A stretch of 64,000 nucleotides of DNA from a phage. A program made the position numbers and the translations under genes. Positions within the stretch are counted from its first letter, which is position 1; the number at the start of each line of letters is the position of its first letter. The stretch is from sequence record PZ386963.1. One strand, given 5' to 3'. The notes beneath the pieces were generated by a model that ran no database searches, had not been told where the DNA came from, and was given only the letters and a program-made list of their open reading frames with translations. Below, in pieces: positions 15,435-40,846 of the stretch.

Positions 15435-16475
15435 ATGGAGAAGTACACATTAACAAAACTTCCCGATTCAGTTACACATGTTTTTATTGACTCTGACAGC
15501 ATTGCCTATAAAGGTGCTTGTGTAGTTGAGAAAGCAAAATATAAATATGTCAATAAACTCACAGCAGAAGAATCTGATTCGTTTGATAATGCAAAAGATG
15601 CTGCAAGATGGTTAGCAGACCAGAGAATCCTTGTGGAAGAGCTTGGTCTGACATTTGATGAAGATGAATGGGAAAGACAGACTTGGAAAGAAGCTAAGAG
15701 TGAAAAAGAAGCTATCATGGCTACTCAACAGGTGCTTCAGGAATGGCTTAAGGTTGTTGGTAAAAAAAGAACTTGGGTAGGTTATTTAACAGAGAAAGGT
15801 GTGCATAAACATAAAGACGTTAAAGGTCTTGAGCACCAATATCAAGGCAACCGTAAAGATGCTGTCACACCAACACACCTAGTTGCTTGTCGTGAGTATC
15901 TTCTGTCAAGACCAGAGTTCAAACTCTTAAAGGGTGGCTTCGAAGCTGATTCAATCGTAATTGCTAAAGCTGAAAAGATGGGTAAGAAAGCCGCTCTTAT
16001 GAGTATTGACAAAGACCTTCGACAAGCTGAAGGGACTTATTGTATTGATATGACTTATGAAAAATCACCACTAATTTTTATTGCTGACAATAATGTTGGT
16101 GATATCTGGGATTGTCCTATCAAATCAAAACCAAAAGCTGCAAAAACAGTTGGTGTAGGTTTTAAATTCTTGTGTTATCAGGCTGTTGCTGGAGATAATG
16201 CAGACAACTACTTCGGCCTTAAGGGTGCTGGTAAAGTAGCTGTGATGAATGCTTTAGATGGTAAAGAGACCTATAAAGAGTGTCTTGACGCTATCTATGA
16301 ACTCTATGCTAAAAAAGACTCTTATACCTATGTGTCATGGGATGGACAGACTGTTACAAAGACACCGTTAGAGTTAATGGAACAGCATTTCTGGATAGCA
16401 TATCAAGAGAGAAATCCAAAAGATAATTTCTCTTTCAAGAAATATAATTGGGAGCCGTGTATGAATGAAGATTAA
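15435..16475 (+). CDS. 5'-3' exonuclease / flap endonuclease (FEN family)
   Basis: VFIDSDSIAY, GFEADSIVIA and GxxGxGxK H3TH-like motifs. Confidence 0.7.
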   Translation: MEKYTLTKLPDSVTHVFIDSDSIAYKGACVVEKAKYKYVNKLTAEESDSFDNAKDAARWLADQRILVEELGLTFDEDEWERQTWKEAKSEKEAIMATQQVLQEWLKVVGKKRTWVGYLTEKGVHKHKDVKGLEHQYQGNRKDAVTPTHLVACREYLLSRPEFKLLKGGFEADSIVIAKAEKMGKKAALMSIDKDLRQAEGTYCIDMTYEKSPLIFIADNNVGDIWDCPIKSKPKAAKTVGVGFKFLCYQAVAGDNADNYFGLKGAGKVAVMNALDGKETYKECLDAIYELYAKKDSYTYVSWDGQTVTKTPLELMEQHFWIAYQERNPKDNFSFKKYNWEPCMNED

Positions 16476-16962
16476 AGGATTTGGCAATTGTCCCACCTAC
16501 GGTCATTGGGTATCTTTATGTGGGGAAGTTGACCCCACTAAACATTTTGGCTTTGTCTATTTAGTACACTGTAAGAAGACTGGACAATATTATATCGGAA
16601 AGAAACAGCTTAACAGTGTGACCAAAAGAAAAGTTGCTGGGAAGACTCGGAAGAAGGTAGTCACTAAGGAAAGTGATTGGATGACTTACGAGACTTCTTC
16701 TGAGTATATTAAAAAAGATATTGAGAGCTTTGGAAAAGAATTTTTTGACTTTTACATTATCCAAACCTACTACACAAAAGGTGGCCTAGTTTATGGTGAA
16801 GCAAACCTTCAACATAAGTTCGATGTAATGACAAAAAGGATTGACTCGAAGCTCAGACTCTTCTACAATGCCAATATTGCAGCAATTAAGTTTATTACTA
16901 AAGAAACTTATGAAGATGCTGAAAAAAGAATCCATAAGGTAATGAAAGCAAATTGTGCTTGA
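16465..16962 (+). CDS. Hypothetical protein
   Basis: 165-aa ORF. Confidence 0.4.
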   Translation: MKIKGFGNCPTYGHWVSLCGEVDPTKHFGFVYLVHCKKTGQYYIGKKQLNSVTKRKVAGKTRKKVVTKESDWMTYETSSEYIKKDIESFGKEFFDFYIIQTYYTKGGLVYGEANLQHKFDVMTKRIDSKLRLFYNANIAAIKFITKETYEDAEKRIHKVMKANCA

Positions 16963-28088: not shown

Positions 28089-28359
28089 AGAGAAGTGGGA
28101 GATTTTACCATTAGTCAGTGAAGGTGGTAATGGTTGTGAAATGTACATGATACGTGGTCATGTTCCAGAACCAATTGCACTTGAGATGGTAAACAACTTT
28201 ACAGATGGTTCTTACAAAGACTTAGGAGAGCCAACTATAAAGCAGCAATGGGTAAAGCCTGTACCAGACAGCACAGGTAACTGTAGTGTACTTTATCACG
28301 TTGTAGACCCTGCAAAATGCAAATCTGCAATGGCAGTAACAAACGTAACTTTTGATTGA
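28081..28359 (+). CDS. Hypothetical protein
   Basis: 92-aa ORF. Confidence 0.35.
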   Translation: MAKEKWEILPLVSEGGNGCEMYMIRGHVPEPIALEMVNNFTDGSYKDLGEPTIKQQWVKPVPDSTGNCSVLYHVVDPAKCKSAMAVTNVTFD

Positions 28360-28370
28360 GAGAGAAAACT

Positions 28371-29252
28371 ATGAAAACTGTTATTGAAGCCGTCGTCACC
28401 GCACAAGAGAAATTCTTCCACACAGAAAAATTTAATATCATTCAATTCCCATCTGGAGAAATTGGTGGAAACTTCTCTGAAGATTTTGTTAAGTTTACTG
28501 AGCGTAATGCTGGTAAGATTGACAATGTTATACTTACTGTACAGGGATATGACAAAGATACACTGTTTGCATTAGCTTTGGCTAAGGATGCCGTTGACAG
28601 TCTTGTTCCCCAGAAATCAGCGATGAAAACCGTTGTTTTCGGGTTCTTACCAAATGCTCGATATGACCGCCACATGTTCAAAGGTGATGCAGCAGCACTG
28701 AAAGTCTTTGCCAACCTAGTTAATGCAATGGGCTTTGATGCAGTATGTGCTCTTGACCCTCACAGCAATGTTGCAGAAAACTTATTTAAGTGCTTTCAGA
28801 GCATGAAGCAAAAAGATGTGGCAGTACACTTTGCAAGTGACCCACGCATTGATTTCTTGGTAGCCCCAGATGCAGGTGCAGCTAAGAAGACTGAAGATGC
28901 CGCTAAAGAGGTGGATAAACCATATATCACAATGGCTAAGGTGCGAAACCTTAAGACTGGAGAAATCACTGGTATGCGAATCCTTGACGATGTTGATTTG
29001 ACCGATAAAACTGTCATGATTCTTGATGATATCTGTGATGGTGGTCGAACATTCGTAGAGGCAGCTAAACACCTACGTGAAGCAGGTGCAAAACGTGTGG
29101 AACTCTATGTAACTCATGGTATTTTCTCTAAAGGTGTTGAAAACTTACTTGACAATGGTATTGACCATATCTACACTACAAACACTTTAGGTGAAGCTAA
29201 AGACCGTGGCTTAACACATTACGGCCAAGTTACTGTAGCAACCATTGATTGA
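28371..29252 (+). CDS. Ribose-phosphate pyrophosphokinase (Prs)-like protein; candidate ADP-ribose pyrophosphate synthetase (Adps)
   Basis: PRPP-synthetase-type phosphoribosyl-binding loop VMILDDICDGGRTFVEAA; 293 aa. Confidence 0.7.
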   Translation: MKTVIEAVVTAQEKFFHTEKFNIIQFPSGEIGGNFSEDFVKFTERNAGKIDNVILTVQGYDKDTLFALALAKDAVDSLVPQKSAMKTVVFGFLPNARYDRHMFKGDAAALKVFANLVNAMGFDAVCALDPHSNVAENLFKCFQSMKQKDVAVHFASDPRIDFLVAPDAGAAKKTEDAAKEVDKPYITMAKVRNLKTGEITGMRILDDVDLTDKTVMILDDICDGGRTFVEAAKHLREAGAKRVELYVTHGIFSKGVENLLDNGIDHIYTTNTLGEAKDRGLTHYGQVTVATID

Positions 29253-29297: not shown

Positions 29298-31079
29298 ATG
29301 ACTAAATCACTTTATGCAGTACCAGCAGGTTTAAACGCAGATGCTTACAAATCTGGTCATGTTTACCAGTATCCTAGTGCAACAGAGTACTTGATGTTCA
29401 ACCTGACACCACGTAGCGACAAATGGTTTAACAGCCCTTTAGCAATTGATGGTGTAGTGGCTTTTGGTATTCAACGTTTTGTTAAAGATTACTTGATAGA
29501 CCACTGGAACGCCACTTTCTTTGAACGTGATAAAAAAGAAGCAATTGACGAAATCTTAGAAGTCATGAATGGTGTTCTGGGTAAAGATACTATCGGTCGA
29601 GAGCATTGGGAAGCACTTCACGACTTAGGTTATCTGCCAGTTGAAGTATACGCTGTAGAAGAAGGCACAGTTGTCCCGATGCGTGTCCCAATGATTGTCT
29701 TCCAGAACACTGTTTCAGGTTTCCATTGGGTAGCAGGTTATCTGGAAGATGCTTTCTCTGCTGAGATTTGGAAGGCTTGCACCATTGCAACTATCGCATT
29801 GCACTACAAACGTATCTGTAAGAAGTGGGCTGACCTTACTTGCGACAACGACTTACATTTACCTTATCAGTGCCATGACTTTGCTATGCGTGGTATGTCC
29901 GGCTTTACTGATGACGCATTTAACGCTGTAGGCCACTTAACCAGCTTTAAAGGAACTGATAGCTTCCCTGCTGTATACACGGCTAAACGCATCTATGGAC
30001 AGTCTTACCCAATCTGTGATATTGGTAGCTCTGTACCAGCCACTGAACACTCTGTAATGTGTGCAAACATTGCTTGGGGAGGTGGTAATGAACTGATTGA
30101 AGAAGAAAGACGCTTTAAAGGTGAGTTACAAACCTTCCGTCGTTTCTTAACAGAAACTTACCCAACTGGTATTGCAAGTATTGTTTCAGATACTTATAAC
30201 TTCTGGAGAACTGTGTCAGAAATCTTACCAGCACTCCGTAAAGAAATTATGGAACGTGATGGCAAACTGGTAATTCGTCCTGACTCTGGAGACCCTGTAC
30301 ATATTGTCACAGGTTATAAAGCAATCCACTTAGAGTGTGCTAAGAAGGCTTATTATGAGCACCTAAGCAAGCTGGAAGCCAGTGACACAATGTTGAATGC
30401 TGTTCTGAACATGAAGCTTGAAAACATCAGCTATGGTATTGCTGGATGGCTACTGTCAGAAGGCTACGAAATGGTTGTTGACAGAGAAGACTTTGAAGCT
30501 GCTGATACAGTGATGTTGAAAAATGCTTATATGGTTGGTTCTGCAAACGTTGTAACACGCCCTGTAGCTGAGATTGATGGAGCTATTAAGACACTGTACA
30601 ACATCTTTGGGGGAACTATTAACTCTAAAGGGTTTAAGGTACTGGATGAGCACATCGGCCTTATCTATGGTGACTCTATCACGCTGGAACGTGCAAACGA
30701 AATCCTGAAGCGTCTGTATGAAATGGGTTTTGCAAGCTCTAACGTAGTGTTTGGTGTAGGTTCTTACACTTACCAGTACATGACTCGTGACACCTTTGCA
30801 TTTGCTGTCAAAGCAACTCTTGCAAGCATTGGTGGTAAAGAGATTATGCTTGCAAAAGACCCTAAAACAGATAGTGGTGTTAAGAAATCTGCCTTTGGTG
30901 GTGTAGCACCTATGTGGGATGGGGATAAGCTGAAAGCTGTAGATGGCTATGGATTCCAGAGTTTTGCAGATGCACTTGACCACCCAGCTTGTGCTTTACG
31001 TTTAGTCTTTAGCGACTCTGAGCAGTTCGGTTACACAACTCTTGGTGATATTCGAAATAATATTGACAAGCAGCTTTAA
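29298..31079 (+). CDS. Nicotinamide phosphoribosyltransferase (Nampt/NadV)-like protein; candidate Namat
   Basis: 593 aa; family assignment from overall Nampt-like sequence character, no single diagnostic motif picked out; immediately downstream of Prs-like gene. Confidence 0.65.
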   Translation: MTKSLYAVPAGLNADAYKSGHVYQYPSATEYLMFNLTPRSDKWFNSPLAIDGVVAFGIQRFVKDYLIDHWNATFFERDKKEAIDEILEVMNGVLGKDTIGREHWEALHDLGYLPVEVYAVEEGTVVPMRVPMIVFQNTVSGFHWVAGYLEDAFSAEIWKACTIATIALHYKRICKKWADLTCDNDLHLPYQCHDFAMRGMSGFTDDAFNAVGHLTSFKGTDSFPAVYTAKRIYGQSYPICDIGSSVPATEHSVMCANIAWGGGNELIEEERRFKGELQTFRRFLTETYPTGIASIVSDTYNFWRTVSEILPALRKEIMERDGKLVIRPDSGDPVHIVTGYKAIHLECAKKAYYEHLSKLEASDTMLNAVLNMKLENISYGIAGWLLSEGYEMVVDREDFEAADTVMLKNAYMVGSANVVTRPVAEIDGAIKTLYNIFGGTINSKGFKVLDEHIGLIYGDSITLERANEILKRLYEMGFASSNVVFGVGSYTYQYMTRDTFAFAVKATLASIGGKEIMLAKDPKTDSGVKKSAFGGVAPMWDGDKLKAVDGYGFQSFADALDHPACALRLVFSDSEQFGYTTLGDIRNNIDKQL

Positions 31080-35237: not shown

Positions 35238-35270
35238 ATTTCTTAAAAGGCTGCTTCGGCGGCCTTTTTT
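35238..35270 (+). terminator. Rho-independent terminator
   Basis: GGCTGC-TTCG-GCGGCC hairpin plus TTTTTT. Confidence 0.6.
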
Positions 35271-35331: not shown

Positions 35332-35880
35332 ATGAAGAAATTGATTCTAGGTTTGTGCTTAATGTTTACAGCACACTTATCTTATGCAGTTGACTGCCCA
35401 GAGCTATCAATTAGCCAAAAAGTAAACATGTTAAAAGCTTACCAGTATGGTGAGAATAACATGGGTAAAGGTTGGGGTATCACTCTAGCTGCTATAGCCT
35501 TACAAGAGTCAGAGTTAGGTCTGAAGGTAGAGAATAAAAAGACACATGATTATGGTATTTTCCAGAATCACTTGAAGACTGTTGTAAAGCGTAACAAAAT
35601 TAGCCCTAATGTGGCTAAAAAGAAACTCTTAAAAGACTTTGACTATGCTGCGAAGGAAACACACAAAGAACTTGAGTTTTGGACAAAGGTGCATGGTCAG
35701 CCAAAGTCAAAGAAGACTTTACAAAAAGTTTTAGCATCATATAATGCTGGGTATTCGTACAGAATCCCTAAAGCTAAGAAATATTCTCAAGATGTCTATA
35801 ACAATATGAAAGTAATCGCTCAATGTGAATTTGCAACAAACATTTCTAAGGTAAACCATGAAAAAATTAAGAAAGTCTGA
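35332..35880 (+). CDS. Secreted lytic transglycosylase (SLT-domain) protein
   Basis: Signal peptide MKKLILGLCLMFTAHLSYA; AIALQESELG and SYNAGYS motifs. Confidence 0.55.
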   Translation: MKKLILGLCLMFTAHLSYAVDCPELSISQKVNMLKAYQYGENNMGKGWGITLAAIALQESELGLKVENKKTHDYGIFQNHLKTVVKRNKISPNVAKKKLLKDFDYAAKETHKELEFWTKVHGQPKSKKTLQKVLASYNAGYSYRIPKAKKYSQDVYNNMKVIAQCEFATNISKVNHEKIKKV

Positions 35881-36553
35881 TGAAGTATTGTGCCATGCTT
35901 ATGACTTGCACCCTCATGAGTTAGGTCTTGATTCCTGTGTATGGACTCCAGAACAGTGCAGGGATTTTGAAGACACCGCAAGAGAAGTTGTATGTTCACT
36001 TGAAGAGTTCCACACATCAGAACCAATTGTGAACGTTGTGGACAAAAAGACTGGACAAGCTATAGGTGTAAGTCGTGATAGCTTAGTCATAGTCAATAAA
36101 GACCTTGTAGAAAAAGGGAATCTCATCTTAGCAGATATTGATGGTGTTCTTACAAATTTTAATCACGAAGATTGTTCAACGGAATTGACTGACGGTTCAT
36201 TCTCGCAGTATACCAATCTTCTTGATTCTGTAAGAGCAAAGCCGACGTATGTTTTCAATATCATTGATGCAATTGCTAATCATGCTGCTGTTGGACTCTT
36301 GACAGCGAGAGGCGAATCTCAGAGAATACCTACTGAGATGTTTTTAAGGCATAACACAGAGCATGACTACATGCTTTTTATGCGTGGTTTTGGGACTAAC
36401 TCTATAAGTGCAGAAAGTTTGAAAGTGAGGATGATTCAGTCTTGCATTCTGCCTTACTTTAATATAGTATGTTTTATAGAAGACACAGAGAAGAATGTGC
36501 AGAAGGTGAACAGAATCCTTCCACACATCAAAACCATGTTAGTTAAACATTGA
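35858..36553 (+). CDS. HAD-superfamily phosphatase-like protein (possible 5'-deoxynucleotidase)
   Basis: DIDGVLTNF resembles HAD motif I DxDG; start uncertain. Confidence 0.35.
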   Translation: MKKLRKSDEVLCHAYDLHPHELGLDSCVWTPEQCRDFEDTAREVVCSLEEFHTSEPIVNVVDKKTGQAIGVSRDSLVIVNKDLVEKGNLILADIDGVLTNFNHEDCSTELTDGSFSQYTNLLDSVRAKPTYVFNIIDAIANHAAVGLLTARGESQRIPTEMFLRHNTEHDYMLFMRGFGTNSISAESLKVRMIQSCILPYFNIVCFIEDTEKNVQKVNRILPHIKTMLVKH

Positions 36554-38484: not shown

Positions 38485-38686
38485 AAAGACACGAAAACTT
38501 ATCAGGTCAGCAGTGTTCATTGGACGAAATGAGGTCATCCCATTTACAGCAAATGATGTGATAGCTTACAGGAAGAACTTAGTATTCACTGACTGCTTAC
38601 GTGGCTTCATCTCTGAACCATTGGAAGACTTTAAAAGTCGTTGTGGTAAAGGTATCATCATTCAAGAGGCAATTATTCATGGCTGA
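38459..38686 (+). CDS. Hypothetical protein
   Basis: 75-aa ORF. Confidence 0.3.
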   Translation: MKVILARDKKTRKLIRSAVFIGRNEVIPFTANDVIAYRKNLVFTDCLRGFISEPLEDFKSRCGKGIIIQEAIIHG

Positions 38687-38879
38687 CTTCTGTAAAGACT
38701 GTTCTATCGAAATGTTCGGACGTGATACAGGTGACTTAAAAGGTCTTATCACTGAAGATGACTTTAAAGCTGGTTATGCAATGCCAGTAATCTGTGAAGG
38801 TTGTGGGTGCATCTGGGTAGACCATGAGGGGCAACGTGTAAAACCTTCAGAAGATAAAGAATCTTGGGAGAGATGTTAA
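38679..38879 (+). CDS. Small Cys-rich protein
   Basis: CKDCS...CEGCGC; start at MADF. Confidence 0.3.
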   Translation: MADFCKDCSIEMFGRDTGDLKGLITEDDFKAGYAMPVICEGCGCIWVDHEGQRVKPSEDKESWERC

Positions 38880-39665
38880 ATGGGTATTGTAAAAATCATC
38901 AATGGTGATATCTTTGCTGCATTTGATAAAGGTAAGTTTGACATCATTGGTCATGGTTGTAACTGTATGAACCTAATGGGTGCAGGTATCGCTGATAAGA
39001 TTTCTAAACTTTACCCAAAAGCATATGAGACCGATACAGAAGTTTATCTATATGCAGGTGGTATAGGCCACAAACCCTGTGAAAATTTACTGGGTAATTT
39101 CTCCGTAGCACGTTTAAAACAAGGTCGTATAGCTAACCTTTACACTCAGCTTAAGACTGGTAAAGATGCACGATACAGTGCTTTAGAGTCATCTTTGAAA
39201 CAGCTTAACAGATACTGTGAAGTTAACCAGTTGAAGAAGGTTGGTCTACCTATGATTGGTGCAGGTATCGGTGGACTTGACCCTCAAGCTGTCACAGTTA
39301 TCATCAATCAGGTGATGAAGGGTGTAGATGTTTATCTGTATGTCTATGAAGGAGAGATGTACCACAAGTTACGCTCAGGTTGGAAGAACTACTGTGAACC
39401 AGAATACTTTGCAGGTGTAGCAGTGTTCACAGATAACGCAGTTACCCTCTTCAGACGAAGAAAAGGTAAGATACATCAAAGTAACCCTCCGGTTGAAAAG
39501 ATGTCTCTAAGTAATGCTCTAGTTACCCACCTGTCGAAGAGCAATCACAGAATTGCTGTAACATTTGGTAGTGATGCAGAAGCTTATATCTATGCAAGAA
39601 CTGATGAGGATATCGAGGCAATCTTCTCTTCACCAGAAGTTACCTTCTTAGACGCAAAGAACTAA
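38880..39665 (+). CDS. Macrodomain protein, TARG1/OARD1-like (ADP-ribose binding/hydrolase)
   Basis: INGDIF...IIGHGCNCMNLMGAGIA matches the glycine-rich MGAGIA loop of TARG1-type macrodomains. Confidence 0.55.
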   Translation: MGIVKIINGDIFAAFDKGKFDIIGHGCNCMNLMGAGIADKISKLYPKAYETDTEVYLYAGGIGHKPCENLLGNFSVARLKQGRIANLYTQLKTGKDARYSALESSLKQLNRYCEVNQLKKVGLPMIGAGIGGLDPQAVTVIINQVMKGVDVYLYVYEGEMYHKLRSGWKNYCEPEYFAGVAVFTDNAVTLFRRRKGKIHQSNPPVEKMSLSNALVTHLSKSNHRIAVTFGSDAEAYIYARTDEDIEAIFSSPEVTFLDAKN

Positions 39666-39716
39666 GAAACTTCGTAGTATATTCACAATAGACTAAGCCT
39701 TTCTTATCTGGTAAAT

Positions 39717-39925
39717 TTTTCAGGTAAGGAGGGCTTTTTCATTTCAGATTTGTGCAGGTAAAGTTCTGTAGAGAAATCTATAGAGAAAATTTTGAACTCC
39801 AAAGAGAAAATTCATTTTCAAACTGTGCAGGTAATCTCCAAAGAGCTTTTTCATTTTCAAAACGTGCAGACCCCGCTCAGGTCGGGCAAGAAAAATCATT
39901 TTAGAATTGTGCAGGTAGGTGGGTG
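39717..39925. repeat. Four to five degenerate direct repeats (~TTTTTCATTTTCARAnTGTGCAGGTA) in ORF-free spacer
   Basis: Copies near 39735, 39807, 39845, 39891. Confidence 0.55.
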
Positions 39926-40092
39926 TAGGTGGGGCTGTCGCCATTTCTCACAAGGCTACCACATCTGAAAATAAAAGTCAACAGAAAAATTTGTAGCGGA
40001 TTGAAAAATAATTCTTGATTGTAGTTCTGTTTTGTGTTAGTCGTGCGCGCCCGTTTCATTCCATTTTTGCAAAAATATTTTTAAAATTCCTA

Positions 40093-40121
40093 TTGACTCT
40101 TTGAGTATGGTTATCTAATAT
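40093..40121 (+). promoter_or_regulatory. Sigma70-like promoter heading the small-gene array
   Basis: TTGACT - 17 bp - TAATAT. Confidence 0.5.
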
Positions 40122-40171
40122 TTGCATCAGACGGGCAATCAAGCCCACTTCCTAAACTGGAGAATCTAAAA

Positions 40172-40378
40172 ATGCTTTACAGTCGTGAATTGATGGTTAC
40201 AACTAACGTTAACACAAAGGTAAAACGTTTTTACATGCAAATTTGTGGCGTATGGTCTAGAATATCAGAGGCTGACTATTGCAACTATGTAGAAACAGCT
40301 ATAAACTCTAATTGCTACCTTACAAGAAATACTAAGAATTTTACAAGGCAAACAGCGATTTGCTATTACGATAAATAA
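40172..40378 (+). CDS. Cassette gene 1, hypothetical
   Basis: 68 aa; leader CTAAACTGGAGAATCTAAAAATG. Confidence 0.4.
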   Translation: MLYSRELMVTTNVNTKVKRFYMQICGVWSRISEADYCNYVETAINSNCYLTRNTKNFTRQTAICYYDK

Positions 40379-40380
40379 AA

Positions 40381-40465
40381 GTACTTTACATGGGGCTTAA
40401 AAGTCTGTAAAGTAAGCCCCAGATAAAGAGCTTTACCAACAACCTTAAACTAGGAGAATCTGAAA
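40381..40465 (+). promoter_or_regulatory. Cassette head type A: promoter-like TTTACA/TAAAGT + GGGGCTTA/TAAGCCCC stem-loop + conserved leader/RBS
   Basis: Stem-loop and AGATAAAGAGCTTTACC...TAAACTAGGAGA leader conserved across copies. Confidence 0.55.
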
Positions 40466-40846
40466 ATGGCATATCGCGCACCTAAATTCATCAACAAAGA
40501 CAACTTTCGCAACGCACTGGAGAAGTCACTTGATGAGGATTTTAAAGGCAATGTTATTGTTGTCCACGCATTCAATTTTAAGTATGATATTAACGGGAAC
40601 AGAATCAACCATTACACGGCAACAATGTTAGATGGCACACTTTCAAGTGAAAAAGCCATTATCAATGCACTTGCAGGACGTGGGAAAAACCTGATAAGAT
40701 GCGATAAGAGACGTTATCAAGGTGGCGCATATGGTTACGATGATGCTATCTATCATCTTGAGAATATGGGCTATCTAGTAGAAAAAGCGGGAGCGCCCCA
40801 AATTATTGGTAGTGATGGCTATGTAACAATTTTCAAAATTAACTAA
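40466..40846 (+). CDS. Cassette gene 2, hypothetical
   Basis: 126 aa. Confidence 0.45.
   Translation: MAYRAPKFINKDNFRNALEKSLDEDFKGNVIVVHAFNFKYDINGNRINHYTATMLDGTLSSEKAIINALAGRGKNLIRCDKRRYQGGAYGYDDAIYHLENMGYLVEKAGAPQIIGSDGYVTIFKIN

What the first reader, a model, noticed from the sequence alone, without database searches (positions are those of the whole stretch)
38880..39665. TARG1-like macrodomain protein: candidate ADP-ribosylation reversal factor
The N-terminal ~150 aa carries GDIF...IIGHGCNCMNLMGAGIA, matching the glycine-rich diphosphate-binding loop of TARG1/OARD1/DarG-type macrodomains; the remaining ~110 aa have no recognisable features. Macrodomains of this class remove ADP-ribose from proteins or from DNA. 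DarG, for example, reverses DarT thymidine ADP-ribosylation. A phage-encoded copy is a plausible counter to ADP-ribosylating defence (DarTG-type) or a processor of ADP-ribose-derived signals, and it sits 8 kb from the NAD+ module.
Basis: partly seen in the sequence, partly recalled or inferred. Interest (0 to 1): 0.65.

Follow-up and report, generated by a model that had tools for sequence, protein, structure and literature searches.

The report
Felix O1-type phage AdfM-like macrodomain protein
This is a real gene of a Felix O1-like phage encoding an ADP-ribose-removing macrodomain closely related to phage proteins recently shown to defeat the bacterial DarTG2 DNA-ADP-ribosylating defence, fused to a small tail domain of unknown role; it is a well-supported but largely expected member of a known family.

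Summary
The ORF (38880..39665 +, 261 aa) and the quoted motifs are real. The window is a Felixounavirus, and about 258 deposited relatives carry the full-length gene, annotated as phosphatase or macro domain protein.

Residues 1-156 are a macrodomain: Pfam Macro is above its cutoff, and the AF2 model (pLDDT 86) matches TARG1 best (TM 0.83-0.85), then DarG.

It is 34% identical (E=5e-24) to T4 Tk.4. T4 Tk.4 and PhiKZ gp104 were both recently named AdfM. Tk.4 is genetically required against DarTG2, and gp104 removes thymidine-linked ADP-ribose from DNA. All three fall in PHROG 335.

The TARG1/DarG catalytic Lys is replaced by an invariant Gln (Q90, NLYTQ). This aligns with Gln85 of SCO6735, a proven Lys-independent thymidine-ADPr DNA hydrolase in which Q85A is inactive.

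Residues ~170-261 form a confidently folded, purifying-selected but fast-evolving beta-rich domain. It has no detectable relative outside Ounavirinae-like phages, and its function is unknown.

The NAD+ salvage genes do lie 7.8 kb upstream, but rII and lysis genes separate them from this gene.

This is a new member of a known kind, and interest is moderate.

The parts
38880..39665 (+). Complete gene, 261 aa plus stop: macrodomain fused to an orphan C-terminal domain
   Evidence: ORF list; 99.6% identical to 'putative phosphatase' of phage ekra and present full-length in 258 phage records; AF2 model pLDDT 86.1, pTM 0.86.
38880..39347 (+). Macrodomain, aa 1-156 (ALC1-like/TARG1-DarG-SCO6735 class)
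   Evidence: Pfam Macro above the gathering score; PDB profile search TARG1 E=3.7e-11, DarG 3.6e-9; Foldseek TARG1 TM 0.83-0.85, DarG 0.76-0.82; 34% identity, E=5e-24 to T4 Tk.4.
38952..38993 (+). Loop 1, H25-G-C-N28-C-M-N-L-M-G-A-G-I-A38. The Gly-rich ADP-ribose/phosphate-binding loop. N28 aligns with DarG N22 and PhiKZ AdfM N23
   Evidence: H25, G26, N28, C29, N31, M33-G36 and A38 are invariant in 19 two-domain homologs. BLASTP aligns N28 with PhiKZ N23, whose N23A mutant was used as the inactive control. Aligns with TARG1 AHCISEDCRMGAGIA.
39135..39149 (+). N86-L-Y-T-Q90 motif. Q90 occupies the position of TARG1 K84, DarG K80 and SCO6735 Q85
   Evidence: Invariant in all 33 macrodomain-containing homologs recovered (NLFTQ in one). 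MAFFT places ANLYTQ, SCO6735 ANMIGQ and TARG1 YLITK in one column. SCO6735 Q85A is inactive (PMC9411070).
39249..39281 (+). Loop 2, P124-M-I-G-A-G-I-G-G-L-D134 (diphosphate-binding loop). TARG1 D125 aligns with G131
   Evidence: P124, G127-I130 and G132-D134 are invariant in A1. Alignment to TARG1 MPRIGCGLDRLQ.
39348..39386 (+). Linker with helix (aa 157-169; helix 158-167)
   Evidence: DSSP on the AF2 model.
39387..39662 (+). Orphan C-terminal domain, aa 170-261. Six beta strands plus a short C-terminal helix. Conserved P174, G179 and Y236
38866..38872 (+). Shine-Dalgarno-like GGGAGAG, 7 nt before the ATG
   Evidence: Read directly from the sequence.
38679..38879 (+). Upstream 66-aa ORF with two CxxC pairs (zinc-ribbon-like). 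Its stop abuts the macro ATG, so translational coupling is possible
   Evidence: Sequence. Annotated as a conserved phage protein in ekra. No Pfam hit. A different CxxC...CxxC ORF sits at the same position in distant locus L003 but not in L004.
39695..39746 (+). Terminator-like hairpin plus T-tract, 30 nt after the stop codon. Likely end of the transcription unit
   Evidence: Consensus scan: 17-pair stem, 6 GC pairs. Conserved in ekra, phiST56 and partly in Michonne.

Best explanation
The gene encodes an AdfM-type anti-defence enzyme. Its N-terminal macrodomain binds the ADP-ribose moiety through loop 1 (HGCNCMNLMGAGIA) and loop 2 (PMIGAGIGGLD). It then hydrolyses the N-glycosidic bond between ADP-ribose and thymine on single-stranded phage DNA. 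That mark is written by DarT2-type toxins of DarTG2 defence systems and blocks phage DNA replication and packaging. Catalysis is predicted to be Lys-independent. Q90, with N28, would position the distal ribose and an activated water, as proposed for SCO6735, and no TARG1-type Lys-ribose intermediate would form. The C-terminal ~90-aa domain is a lineage-specific accessory module of unknown role. Shown here: gene, fold, class, motif conservation, homology to validated AdfMs, and selection on both domains. Inferred: substrate, catalytic mechanism, biological target, and any role of the C-terminal domain.
For: Fold and class: macrodomain fold with TARG1 and DarG as the nearest solved structures.
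Family hits: the only hits in the PADLOC and NCBIfam libraries are DarG models (E=5.6e-13 and 1.5e-12).
Homology to T4 Tk.4: 34% identity, E=5e-24, with shared HGCNC, MGxG[IV]A, NLYTQ and IGAGIG motifs. Clean deletion of tk.4 sensitises T4 to DarTG2.
PHROG: the window protein, Tk.4 and PhiKZ gp104/AdfM share PHROG 335. gp104 removes T-ADPr from oligonucleotides and lowers ADP-ribosylation of phage DNA in vivo.
Active site: Q90 is invariant and aligns with SCO6735 Gln85. SCO6735 cleaves thymidine-linked ADPr on ssDNA, rescues DarT toxicity and is killed by Q85A. N28 aligns with the DarG N22/PhiKZ N23 active-site Asn.
Conservation: the gene is carried full-length by all 258 records that match the surrounding 3 kb. 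It stays in the same syntenic slot in relatives at 33-36% identity, and the macrodomain has dN/dS of 0.02-0.25.
Target availability: the window shows no avoidance of the TNTC DarT2 target motif (2440 sites, z=+1.0 against Markov-1), so the DNA is targetable.
No cognate writer: no phage-encoded ADP-ribosyltransferase or NADAR is annotated in a complete Felixounavirus genome, which points to a host-made modification as the substrate.
Against: No experiment exists on this protein or on any Ounavirinae homolog; literature searches for Felixounavirus or Bas63 with DarTG found nothing usable. The T4 Tk.4 evidence is genetic only, from a preprint, and its hydrolase activity is assumed by the authors. 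Similarity to the biochemically validated PhiKZ AdfM is weak (23% identity, pairwise E=2e-4), and that protein keeps the catalytic Lys (K78). SCO6735 K34, which is important for its DNA activity, corresponds to A35 here. The HxCNC motif is shared with yeast Poa1p, an ADP-ribose-1''-phosphate phosphatase. One Tk.4-like relative is fused to a cREC cyclic-phosphate-processing domain. Both observations are compatible with small-molecule substrates. TARG1-like macrodomains are promiscuous, acting on protein Glu/Asp-ADPr, T-ADPr DNA and U-ADPr RNA.
Confidence: 0.6

Rival explanations
1. The enzyme is a soluble ADP-ribose-derivative hydrolase. It would clear small molecules such as ADP-ribose-1''-phosphate (Poa1p-like 'phosphatase'), O-acetyl-ADP-ribose, or ADPr-based immune signals and toxins (Thoeris gcADPR or His-ADPR, ADPr-cyclic phosphate). 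It might act together with the phage NAD+ salvage genes.
For: The HxCNC...GxG[IV]A loop is shared with yeast Poa1p (6LFU; profile E=6e-5 over the first 60 residues; alignment), which is the origin of the 'phosphatase' annotation. A Tk.4-like relative (P0026) is fused to a cREC_REC cyclic-phosphate-processing domain. [quoted passage not shown] Nampt and a PRPP-synthetase-like gene lie 7.8-10.5 kb upstream in a conserved arrangement.
Against: The closest experimentally characterised homolog, T4 Tk.4, has a specific DarTG2 phenotype. The Poa1p match covers only the N-terminal third for the window protein, while TARG1, DarG and SCO6735/BT1257 align over the whole domain. The NAD+ genes are separated from the macro gene by rII and lysis genes, and T4 tk.4 is not next to NAD+ genes. 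No direct evidence for any small-molecule substrate was found.
Confidence: 0.2
2. The enzyme reverses ADP-ribosylation of RNA or protein and not of DNA. Candidate substrates are uracil-linked ADPr on RNA or Glu/Asp-linked ADPr on host or phage proteins written by host toxins.
For: TARG1-like macrodomains, including bacterial homologs, efficiently reverse U-ADPr on RNA (PMC13036486). SCO6735 and TARG1 also act on protein substrates. The class is promiscuous.
Against: No cognate writer is known in the relevant hosts for U-ADPr. No phage-encoded ART is annotated in a complete Felixounavirus genome that would need reversal. The only phage phenotypes known for this family concern DarT2 and DNA. This rival is not exclusive of the best explanation.
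Confidence: 0.12
3. The protein is a non-catalytic ADP-ribose binder or toxin inhibitor. It would neutralise a defence by sequestering an ADPr-containing ligand or by binding the toxin directly, possibly through the C-terminal domain, without hydrolysis.
For: The canonical TARG1/DarG Lys and the TARG1 Asp are both absent (Q90, G131). Catalytically dead SCO6735, DarG and TARG1 still inhibit DarT by interaction. DarG2 antitoxins carry a second, DarT-binding domain, and this protein also carries a second domain.
Confidence: 0.06

Closest known systems
T4 Tk.4 = AdfM (anti-DarT factor macrodomain), preprint 10.1101/2025.11.20.689424
   Same: Same PHROG (335). 34% identity over the whole macrodomain (E=5e-24). 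Identical signature motifs: HGCNC, MGxG[IV]A, NLYTQ (Gln at the TARG1-Lys position) and IGAGIG. Encoded by a virulent myovirus of Enterobacteria.
   Different: Tk.4 is a stand-alone 155-aa macrodomain, whereas the window protein has an extra ~100-aa C-terminal domain. The genomic neighbourhoods are unrelated (vs/tk cluster against the rII/lysis/small-ORF cluster). Only Tk.4 has a demonstrated DarTG2 phenotype.
PhiKZ gp104 = chimallivirus AdfM (PMC13309987)
   Same: Phage macrodomain in PHROG 335. DarG-like fold. The active-site Asn is conserved (N23 aligns with N28). It is a single orphan antitoxin-like enzyme with no toxin partner.
   Different: Only 23% identity. gp104 retains the DarG-type catalytic Lys (K78), scores 133-138 bits on DarG models against 47 bits here, is imported into the phage nucleus, and has no C-terminal domain.
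Streptomyces coelicolor SCO6735 (PDB 5E3B) and Bacteroides BT1257 (2AFC/2FG1)
   Same: ALC1-like macrodomains with Gln at the TARG1-K84/DarG-K80 position (ANMIGQ against ANLYTQ), the H-x-C-N motif and the PRIGxGxxG loop. SCO6735 is a proven T-ADPr ssDNA hydrolase and DarT antagonist that works without a catalytic Lys.
   Different: These are cellular proteins. They have a longer mobile loop after the Gln carrying K89 and K93. SCO6735 K34 corresponds to A35 here. About 24-25% identity, and no C-terminal domain.
Human TARG1/OARD1 and bacterial DarG macrodomains
   Same: Nearest solved structures (TM 0.83-0.85 and 0.76-0.82). Same loop architecture. Both remove thymidine-linked ADPr from ssDNA.
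   Different: TARG1 K84/D125 and DarG K80 are not conserved (Q90, G131). DarG has a DarT-binding C-terminal domain and an adjacent darT gene, and neither is present here.
Yeast Poa1p (ADP-ribose-1''-phosphate phosphatase, PDB 6LFU)
   Same: Shares the I-H-x-C-N-C...G-x-G-I-A loop 1 signature. This is the source of the 'phosphatase' database annotation.
   Different: For the window family, similarity is confined to the first ~60 residues. Poa1p acts on a small molecule in tRNA-splicing by-product metabolism.

Membership tests
Macrodomain superfamily (Pfam PF01661) | Sequence match above the curated gathering score | tested here: met
   32.4 bits against a cutoff of 22, aa 25-141, profile positions 2-117 of 118.
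Macrodomain superfamily (Pfam PF01661) | Three-layer alpha/beta/alpha macro fold | tested here: met
   AF2 model pLDDT 86, pTM 0.86. 236 PDB macrodomain chains match at Foldseek E<=1e-3, top TM 0.85.
Macrodomain superfamily (Pfam PF01661) | Binds ADP-ribose | not testable with these tools
   Both ADPr-binding loops are intact and invariant. Binding itself needs ITC, a thermal-shift assay or a co-crystal.
ALC1-like class (TARG1 / DarG / SCO6735 / Poa1p) | Nearest relatives by sequence profile and by structure are members of this class, not MacroD-, PARG- or macroH2A-type | tested here: met
   Profile against PDB: TARG1 3.7e-11, DarG 3.6e-9 and 1.5e-7, Poa1p 6e-5. Foldseek ranks 1-7 are TARG1 and DarG. 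Tk.4 best hits are BT1257, Poa1p and SCO6735.
TARG1-type hydrolase | Catalytic dyad Lys84 / Asp125 | tested here: not met
   K84 aligns with Q90 and D125 with G131. It is therefore not a TARG1-mechanism enzyme.
DarG antitoxin (NCBIfam NF048014, PADLOC PDLC02990) | Catalytic Lys80 (T. aquaticus numbering) | tested here: not met
   The equivalent residue is Q90. The N22 equivalent is present as N28.
DarG antitoxin (NCBIfam NF048014, PADLOC PDLC02990) | Full-length match including the C-terminal DarT-binding domain, above the equivalog cutoff | tested here: not met
   47.5 bits against a cutoff of 250. Only profile positions 4-154 of 338 (NCBIfam) and 18-146 of 329 (PADLOC) are matched.
DarG antitoxin (NCBIfam NF048014, PADLOC PDLC02990) | Adjacent darT toxin gene | tested here: not met
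   Neighbours are small ORFs without Pfam hits. No ART is annotated in the complete genome of a 94%-identical relative.
SCO6735-type (Gln) DNA ADP-ribosylhydrolase | Gln at the TARG1-K84 position, preceded by A-N-hydrophobic-hydrophobic-small | tested here: met
   ANLYTQ90 is in register with SCO6735 ANMIGQ85 and BT1257 ANMIGQ. It is invariant in 33 homologs. Q85A is inactive in SCO6735.
SCO6735-type (Gln) DNA ADP-ribosylhydrolase | DNA-positioning lysines K34 and K89 and the extended mobile loop | tested here: inconclusive
   K34 corresponds to A35. The loop after Q90 is 5 residues shorter. The window has K92 and K95 in an LKTGK stretch resembling SCO6735 MKTGSK, but T4 Tk.4 lacks these lysines.
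Phage AdfM (anti-DarT factor, macrodomain) | Homology to a validated AdfM | tested here: met
   T4 Tk.4: 34% identity, E=5e-24. PhiKZ gp104: 23% identity, E=2e-4. All three are in PHROG 335.
Phage AdfM (anti-DarT factor, macrodomain) | Protects the phage from DarTG2 and neutralises DarT2 toxicity | not testable with these tools
   Needs plaque assays of a deletion mutant and toxin-rescue assays. No published data for Ounavirinae were found.
Phage AdfM (anti-DarT factor, macrodomain) | Hydrolyses thymidine-linked ADP-ribose on ssDNA | not testable with these tools
   Needs a gel-shift or AMP-Glo assay on TNT(ADPr)C oligonucleotides.
Poa1p-like ADP-ribose-1''-phosphate phosphatase | H-x-C-N-C ... 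G-x-G-I-A loop 1 signature and full-domain similarity | tested here: inconclusive
   The signature is shared, but the window-family profile matches Poa1p only over residues 1-60. Phosphatase activity is not testable here.

The most novel reading that the evidence does not exclude
The orphan C-terminal domain is a second, independently evolved anti-toxin module. It could be a DarT-binding or inhibiting domain, or a DNA or replisome-targeting domain. In that case Ounavirinae phages would have convergently rebuilt the two-pronged DarG architecture (hydrolase plus toxin binder) from an unrelated fold. Its rapid divergence, and its replacement by an unrelated tail in Kolesnikvirus, would then reflect an arms race with diverse DarT toxins.
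Probability: 0.15. Interest if true: 0.6.

Novelty: new member of a known kind. Interest (0 to 1): 0.35.

Why it matters
If confirmed, it extends the newly defined AdfM anti-DarTG2 counter-defence from T4-like and jumbo phages to the Felix O1 group. These are widely used Salmonella and E. coli typing, biocontrol and therapy phages, so the result would help predict their host range on DarTG-positive strains. It would also show that the large Tk.4-like clade of phage macrodomains (about 2,800 phage records with a match) uses the Gln-type, Lys-independent active site so far characterised only in SCO6735. The fast-evolving orphan C-terminal domain is a small, tractable candidate for a new specificity or toxin-binding module.

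Tried and rejected
- **Missing Lys means inactive (rejected).** The catalytic Lys is absent, but Q90 aligns with the essential Gln85 of the active DNA hydrolase SCO6735.
- **C-terminal domain against Pfam.** Only a non-significant PH-domain hint, E=0.19.
- **C-terminal domain against BFVD.** Only its own family, phage SUSP2.
- **C-terminal domain profile against 1.84e9 proteins.** It found only the same fusion family, two fragments, and spurious repeat, beta-propeller or retroelement proteins.
- **Rosetta-stone idea.** The idea was that the C-terminal domain equals a separate T4 neighbour gene. hhalign against Tk.3, Tk.2 and Vs gave probability <=0.14.
- **Homology with the phiEa104 tail.** Comparison with the C-terminal extension of Erwinia phage phiEa104 gp016 gave hhalign probability 0.07.
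- **AFDB50 fold search.** The library was unavailable.
- **Nucleic-acid-binding charge signature in the C-terminal domain.** pI ranges from 4.6 to 9.5 across homologs, so there is no consistent signal.
- **Literature.** Searches for Felixounavirus or Bas63 with DarTG found no usable data. LeRoux 2022 is not held. The CmdTAC paper has nothing on phage macrodomains.
- **Rfam on the downstream intergenic region.** Nothing significant.
- **Repeat pattern.** A first pattern was mis-registered and found nothing. It was corrected.
- **TNTC motif avoidance as an alternative escape route.** Not observed.

Full report
**Observation**

It contains G9-DIF and IIGHGCNCMNLMGAGIA (aa 22-38). A GGGAGAG Shine-Dalgarno-like element sits 7 nt upstream, and the stop of the preceding small ORF abuts the start codon (TGT TAA ATG).

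The window is a Felixounavirus (Felix O1-like myovirus). The 3-kb neighbourhood is 90-95% identical to about 200 E. coli, Salmonella and Shigella phages. The protein is 99.6% identical to the 'putative phosphatase' of phage ekra. All 258 records that match the DNA carry the full-length protein. They annotate it variously as phosphatase, macro domain protein, O-acetyl-ADP-ribose deacetylase or hypothetical protein.

**The N-terminal half is a macrodomain of the TARG1/DarG class**

- Pfam Macro scores 32.4 bits against a cutoff of 22.
- PHROG 335 ('phosphatase') matches at E=1.2e-112.
- A profile of 19 two-domain homologs hits human TARG1 best in the PDB (E=3.7e-11), then the M. tuberculosis and T. 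aquaticus DarG macrodomains, TTHA0132 and yeast Poa1p.
- An AlphaFold2 model built on that alignment is confident (pLDDT 86.1, pTM 0.86).
- Its best Foldseek matches are TARG1 (TM 0.81-0.85 on the target) and DarG (0.76-0.82), ahead of viral MacroD-type domains.
- The only hits in the PADLOC and NCBIfam libraries are DarG models. Both are restricted to the macro part of the profile, and the NCBIfam hit lies far below its equivalog cutoff.

**Relation to experimentally characterised phage proteins**

The macrodomain is 34% identical (E=5e-24) to T4 Tk.4. It shares all of that protein's signature motifs.

A 2025 preprint (HIDEN-SEQ) found tk.4 as the single T4 gene conditionally required on a DarTG2 host. 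The authors confirmed this with a clean knockout and renamed the gene adfM.

Independently, PhiKZ gp104 was named AdfM. It was shown to remove thymidine-linked ADP-ribose from oligonucleotides, to neutralise DarT2 toxicity and to protect chimalliviruses from DarTG2. Its putative active-site residues are N23 and K78.

The window protein, Tk.4 and gp104 all fall in PHROG 335. I found no published work linking Felix O1-like phages to DarTG.

**Active site**

The residue aligned with the catalytic Lys of TARG1 (K84), DarG (K80) and PhiKZ AdfM (K78) is an invariant Gln, Q90, in the motif NLYTQ. TARG1 D125 aligns with G131.

The Gln is present in all 33 macrodomain-containing homologs recovered, including T4 Tk.4. 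This initially looked like evidence against hydrolase activity.

However, SCO6735 from S. coelicolor (PDB 5E3B) has Gln85 at exactly this position. It efficiently cleaves thymidine-linked ADP-ribose from ssDNA, rescues DarT toxicity and is inactivated by Q85A. A water-mediated, Lys-independent mechanism was proposed for it (PMC9411070).

I recovered the SCO6735 and BT1257 sequences from PDB alignments. MAFFT then places window IANLYTQ, Tk.4 CFNLYTQ, SCO6735 VANMIGQ, BT1257 VANMIGQ and TARG1 IYYLITK in one column. The paper's K89 and K93 numbering confirms the register.

BT1257 and SCO6735 are also among the best PDB sequence hits of a T4-type Tk.4. N28 aligns with the DarG N22/PhiKZ N23 Asn. 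The phage clade is thus best described as a Gln-type (SCO6735-like) ALC1-class macrodomain.

Three caveats remain:
- SCO6735 K34, which is important for its DNA activity, corresponds to A35 here.
- The post-Gln loop is shorter than in SCO6735.
- The HxCNC motif is also that of Poa1p, an ADP-ribose-1''-phosphate phosphatase.

**The C-terminal half**

Residues ~157-261 are not a disordered tail. The model shows a linker helix (158-167) followed by six beta strands and a short helix, with pLDDT mostly 80-90.

The architecture is conserved in homologs down to 33% identity. These sit in the same syntenic slot (rIIA, rIIB, lysin, HAD/PNK-like gene, small ORFs, then macro) on metagenomic Ounavirinae-like contigs.

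The domain is under purifying selection, but more weakly than the macrodomain. Pairwise dN/dS against phiST56 and Michonne is 0.29 and 0.35, compared with 0.04 and 0.25 for the macrodomain. It diverges about twice as fast in identity: 57% against 81%, falling to ~20% against ~45%.

It has no detectable relative:
- no Pfam hit;
- only its own family in BFVD;
- only the same fusion family in a profile search of 1.84 billion representatives, plus fragments and spurious repeat proteins.

It does not match the DarG C-terminal region, T4 neighbours of tk.4, or the equally long C-terminal extension of the Kolesnikvirus phiEa104 ortholog. Its function is unknown. Its pI is not conserved.

**Context**

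A PRPP-synthetase-like gene (28356..29252) and Nampt (29298..31079) are confirmed. They are separated from the macro gene by rIIA, rIIB, lysin, a HAD/PNK-like gene, spanins and small ORFs. T4 tk.4 has no such neighbours.

I therefore give the proximity little weight. No ART, NADAR or DarT is annotated in a complete relative, which points to a host-made modification as the substrate.

The window shows no depletion of the TNTC DarT2 target motif: 2440 sites, z=+1.0. A terminator-like hairpin follows the gene.

**Mechanism and rivals**

The best-supported reading (confidence ~0.6) is an AdfM-type enzyme. It would remove DarT2-installed ADP-ribose from thymidines on single-stranded phage DNA using a Gln/Asn/water active site.

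The rivals are:
- a soluble ADPr-derivative hydrolase (Poa1p-like motif; a relative fused to cREC; the argument of PMC9503650), confidence ~0.2;
- RNA or protein de-ADP-ribosylation (class promiscuity), confidence ~0.12;
- a non-catalytic binder or toxin inhibitor, confidence ~0.06.

These are partly non-exclusive.

**Novelty**

The family, fold and likely function are known, and the gene is annotated in hundreds of genomes. What is new is modest:
- assignment of the Felix O1 group to the AdfM/Tk.4 clade;
- recognition that this clade has the SCO6735-type Gln active site;
- an orphan, fast-evolving C-terminal domain restricted to Ounavirinae-like phages.

I classify it as a new member of a known kind, with interest 0.35.

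Noticed in passing
window 39739-39914 (array), within intergenic 39666-40171: There are four direct repeats of a ~28-34-nt box with core TCATTT-N6-YGTGCAG(GTA), spaced 73, 39 and 45 nt, just downstream of the macro gene's terminator-like hairpin. The core pattern gives 5 hits in the window within one mismatch (the four array copies exactly, plus one more at 35269) against 0.22 expected. The array is conserved almost base-for-base in Mooglevirus Michonne, whose flanking coding sequence is only ~65% identical at protein level. It may be a regulator-binding array, a promoter set or iterons. Rfam finds nothing.
   Followed up: partly
window 40093-40122 and 40159-40174 / 40453-40468: A conserved AT-rich stretch and a TTGACT...TAATAT promoter-like site follow the repeat array. 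Two downstream small genes (40172 and 40466) share a near-identical ribosome-binding context, GGAGAATCTrAAAATG.
   Followed up: no
window 38679-38879: A 66-aa ORF with two CxxC pairs (zinc-ribbon-like) ends exactly at the macro gene's ATG. A non-homologous 63-aa CxxC...CxxC ORF occupies the same position in distant syntenic locus L003 (7810-8001), but locus L004 has none. It may be a coupled partner or a coincidence.
   Followed up: partly
L009 1498-2280 (Erwinia phage phiEa104 gp016): The Kolesnikvirus ortholog is also 260 aa, but its C-terminal ~105 aa show no detectable homology to the Felixounavirus C-terminal domain. Its loop 1 reads IAQGCNC (Gln in place of His25), and Pfam Macro does not reach E<=0.001. 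This suggests that the tail is a swappable or very rapidly evolving module.
   Followed up: partly
protein P0026 (339 aa, metagenomic): A Tk.4-like macrodomain with NLYTQ is fused to a cREC_REC 'cyclic-phosphate processing receiver' domain (PF20274). This is another accessory-domain fusion in the clade, and it hints at small-molecule ADPr substrates in some members.
   Followed up: no
window 16465-16962; relatives L001 168-488 and 2228-2719: Homing endonucleases are scattered through the region. A SegE-like GIY-YIG gene lies in the window (Pfam E=9e-28). HNH genes in phage ekra interrupt the PRPP-synthetase/Nampt pair, so gene content between close relatives differs by mobile-endonuclease insertions.
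   Followed up: no
window 35858-36553: A 231-aa protein is annotated 'polynucleotide kinase' in relatives. Its counterparts in the distant loci match HAD_PNKP only weakly or faintly, and the window protein has no Pfam hit at E<=0.01. It may be a 3'-phosphatase-only enzyme. It lies 2.3 kb upstream of the macro gene in a conserved arrangement.
   Followed up: no
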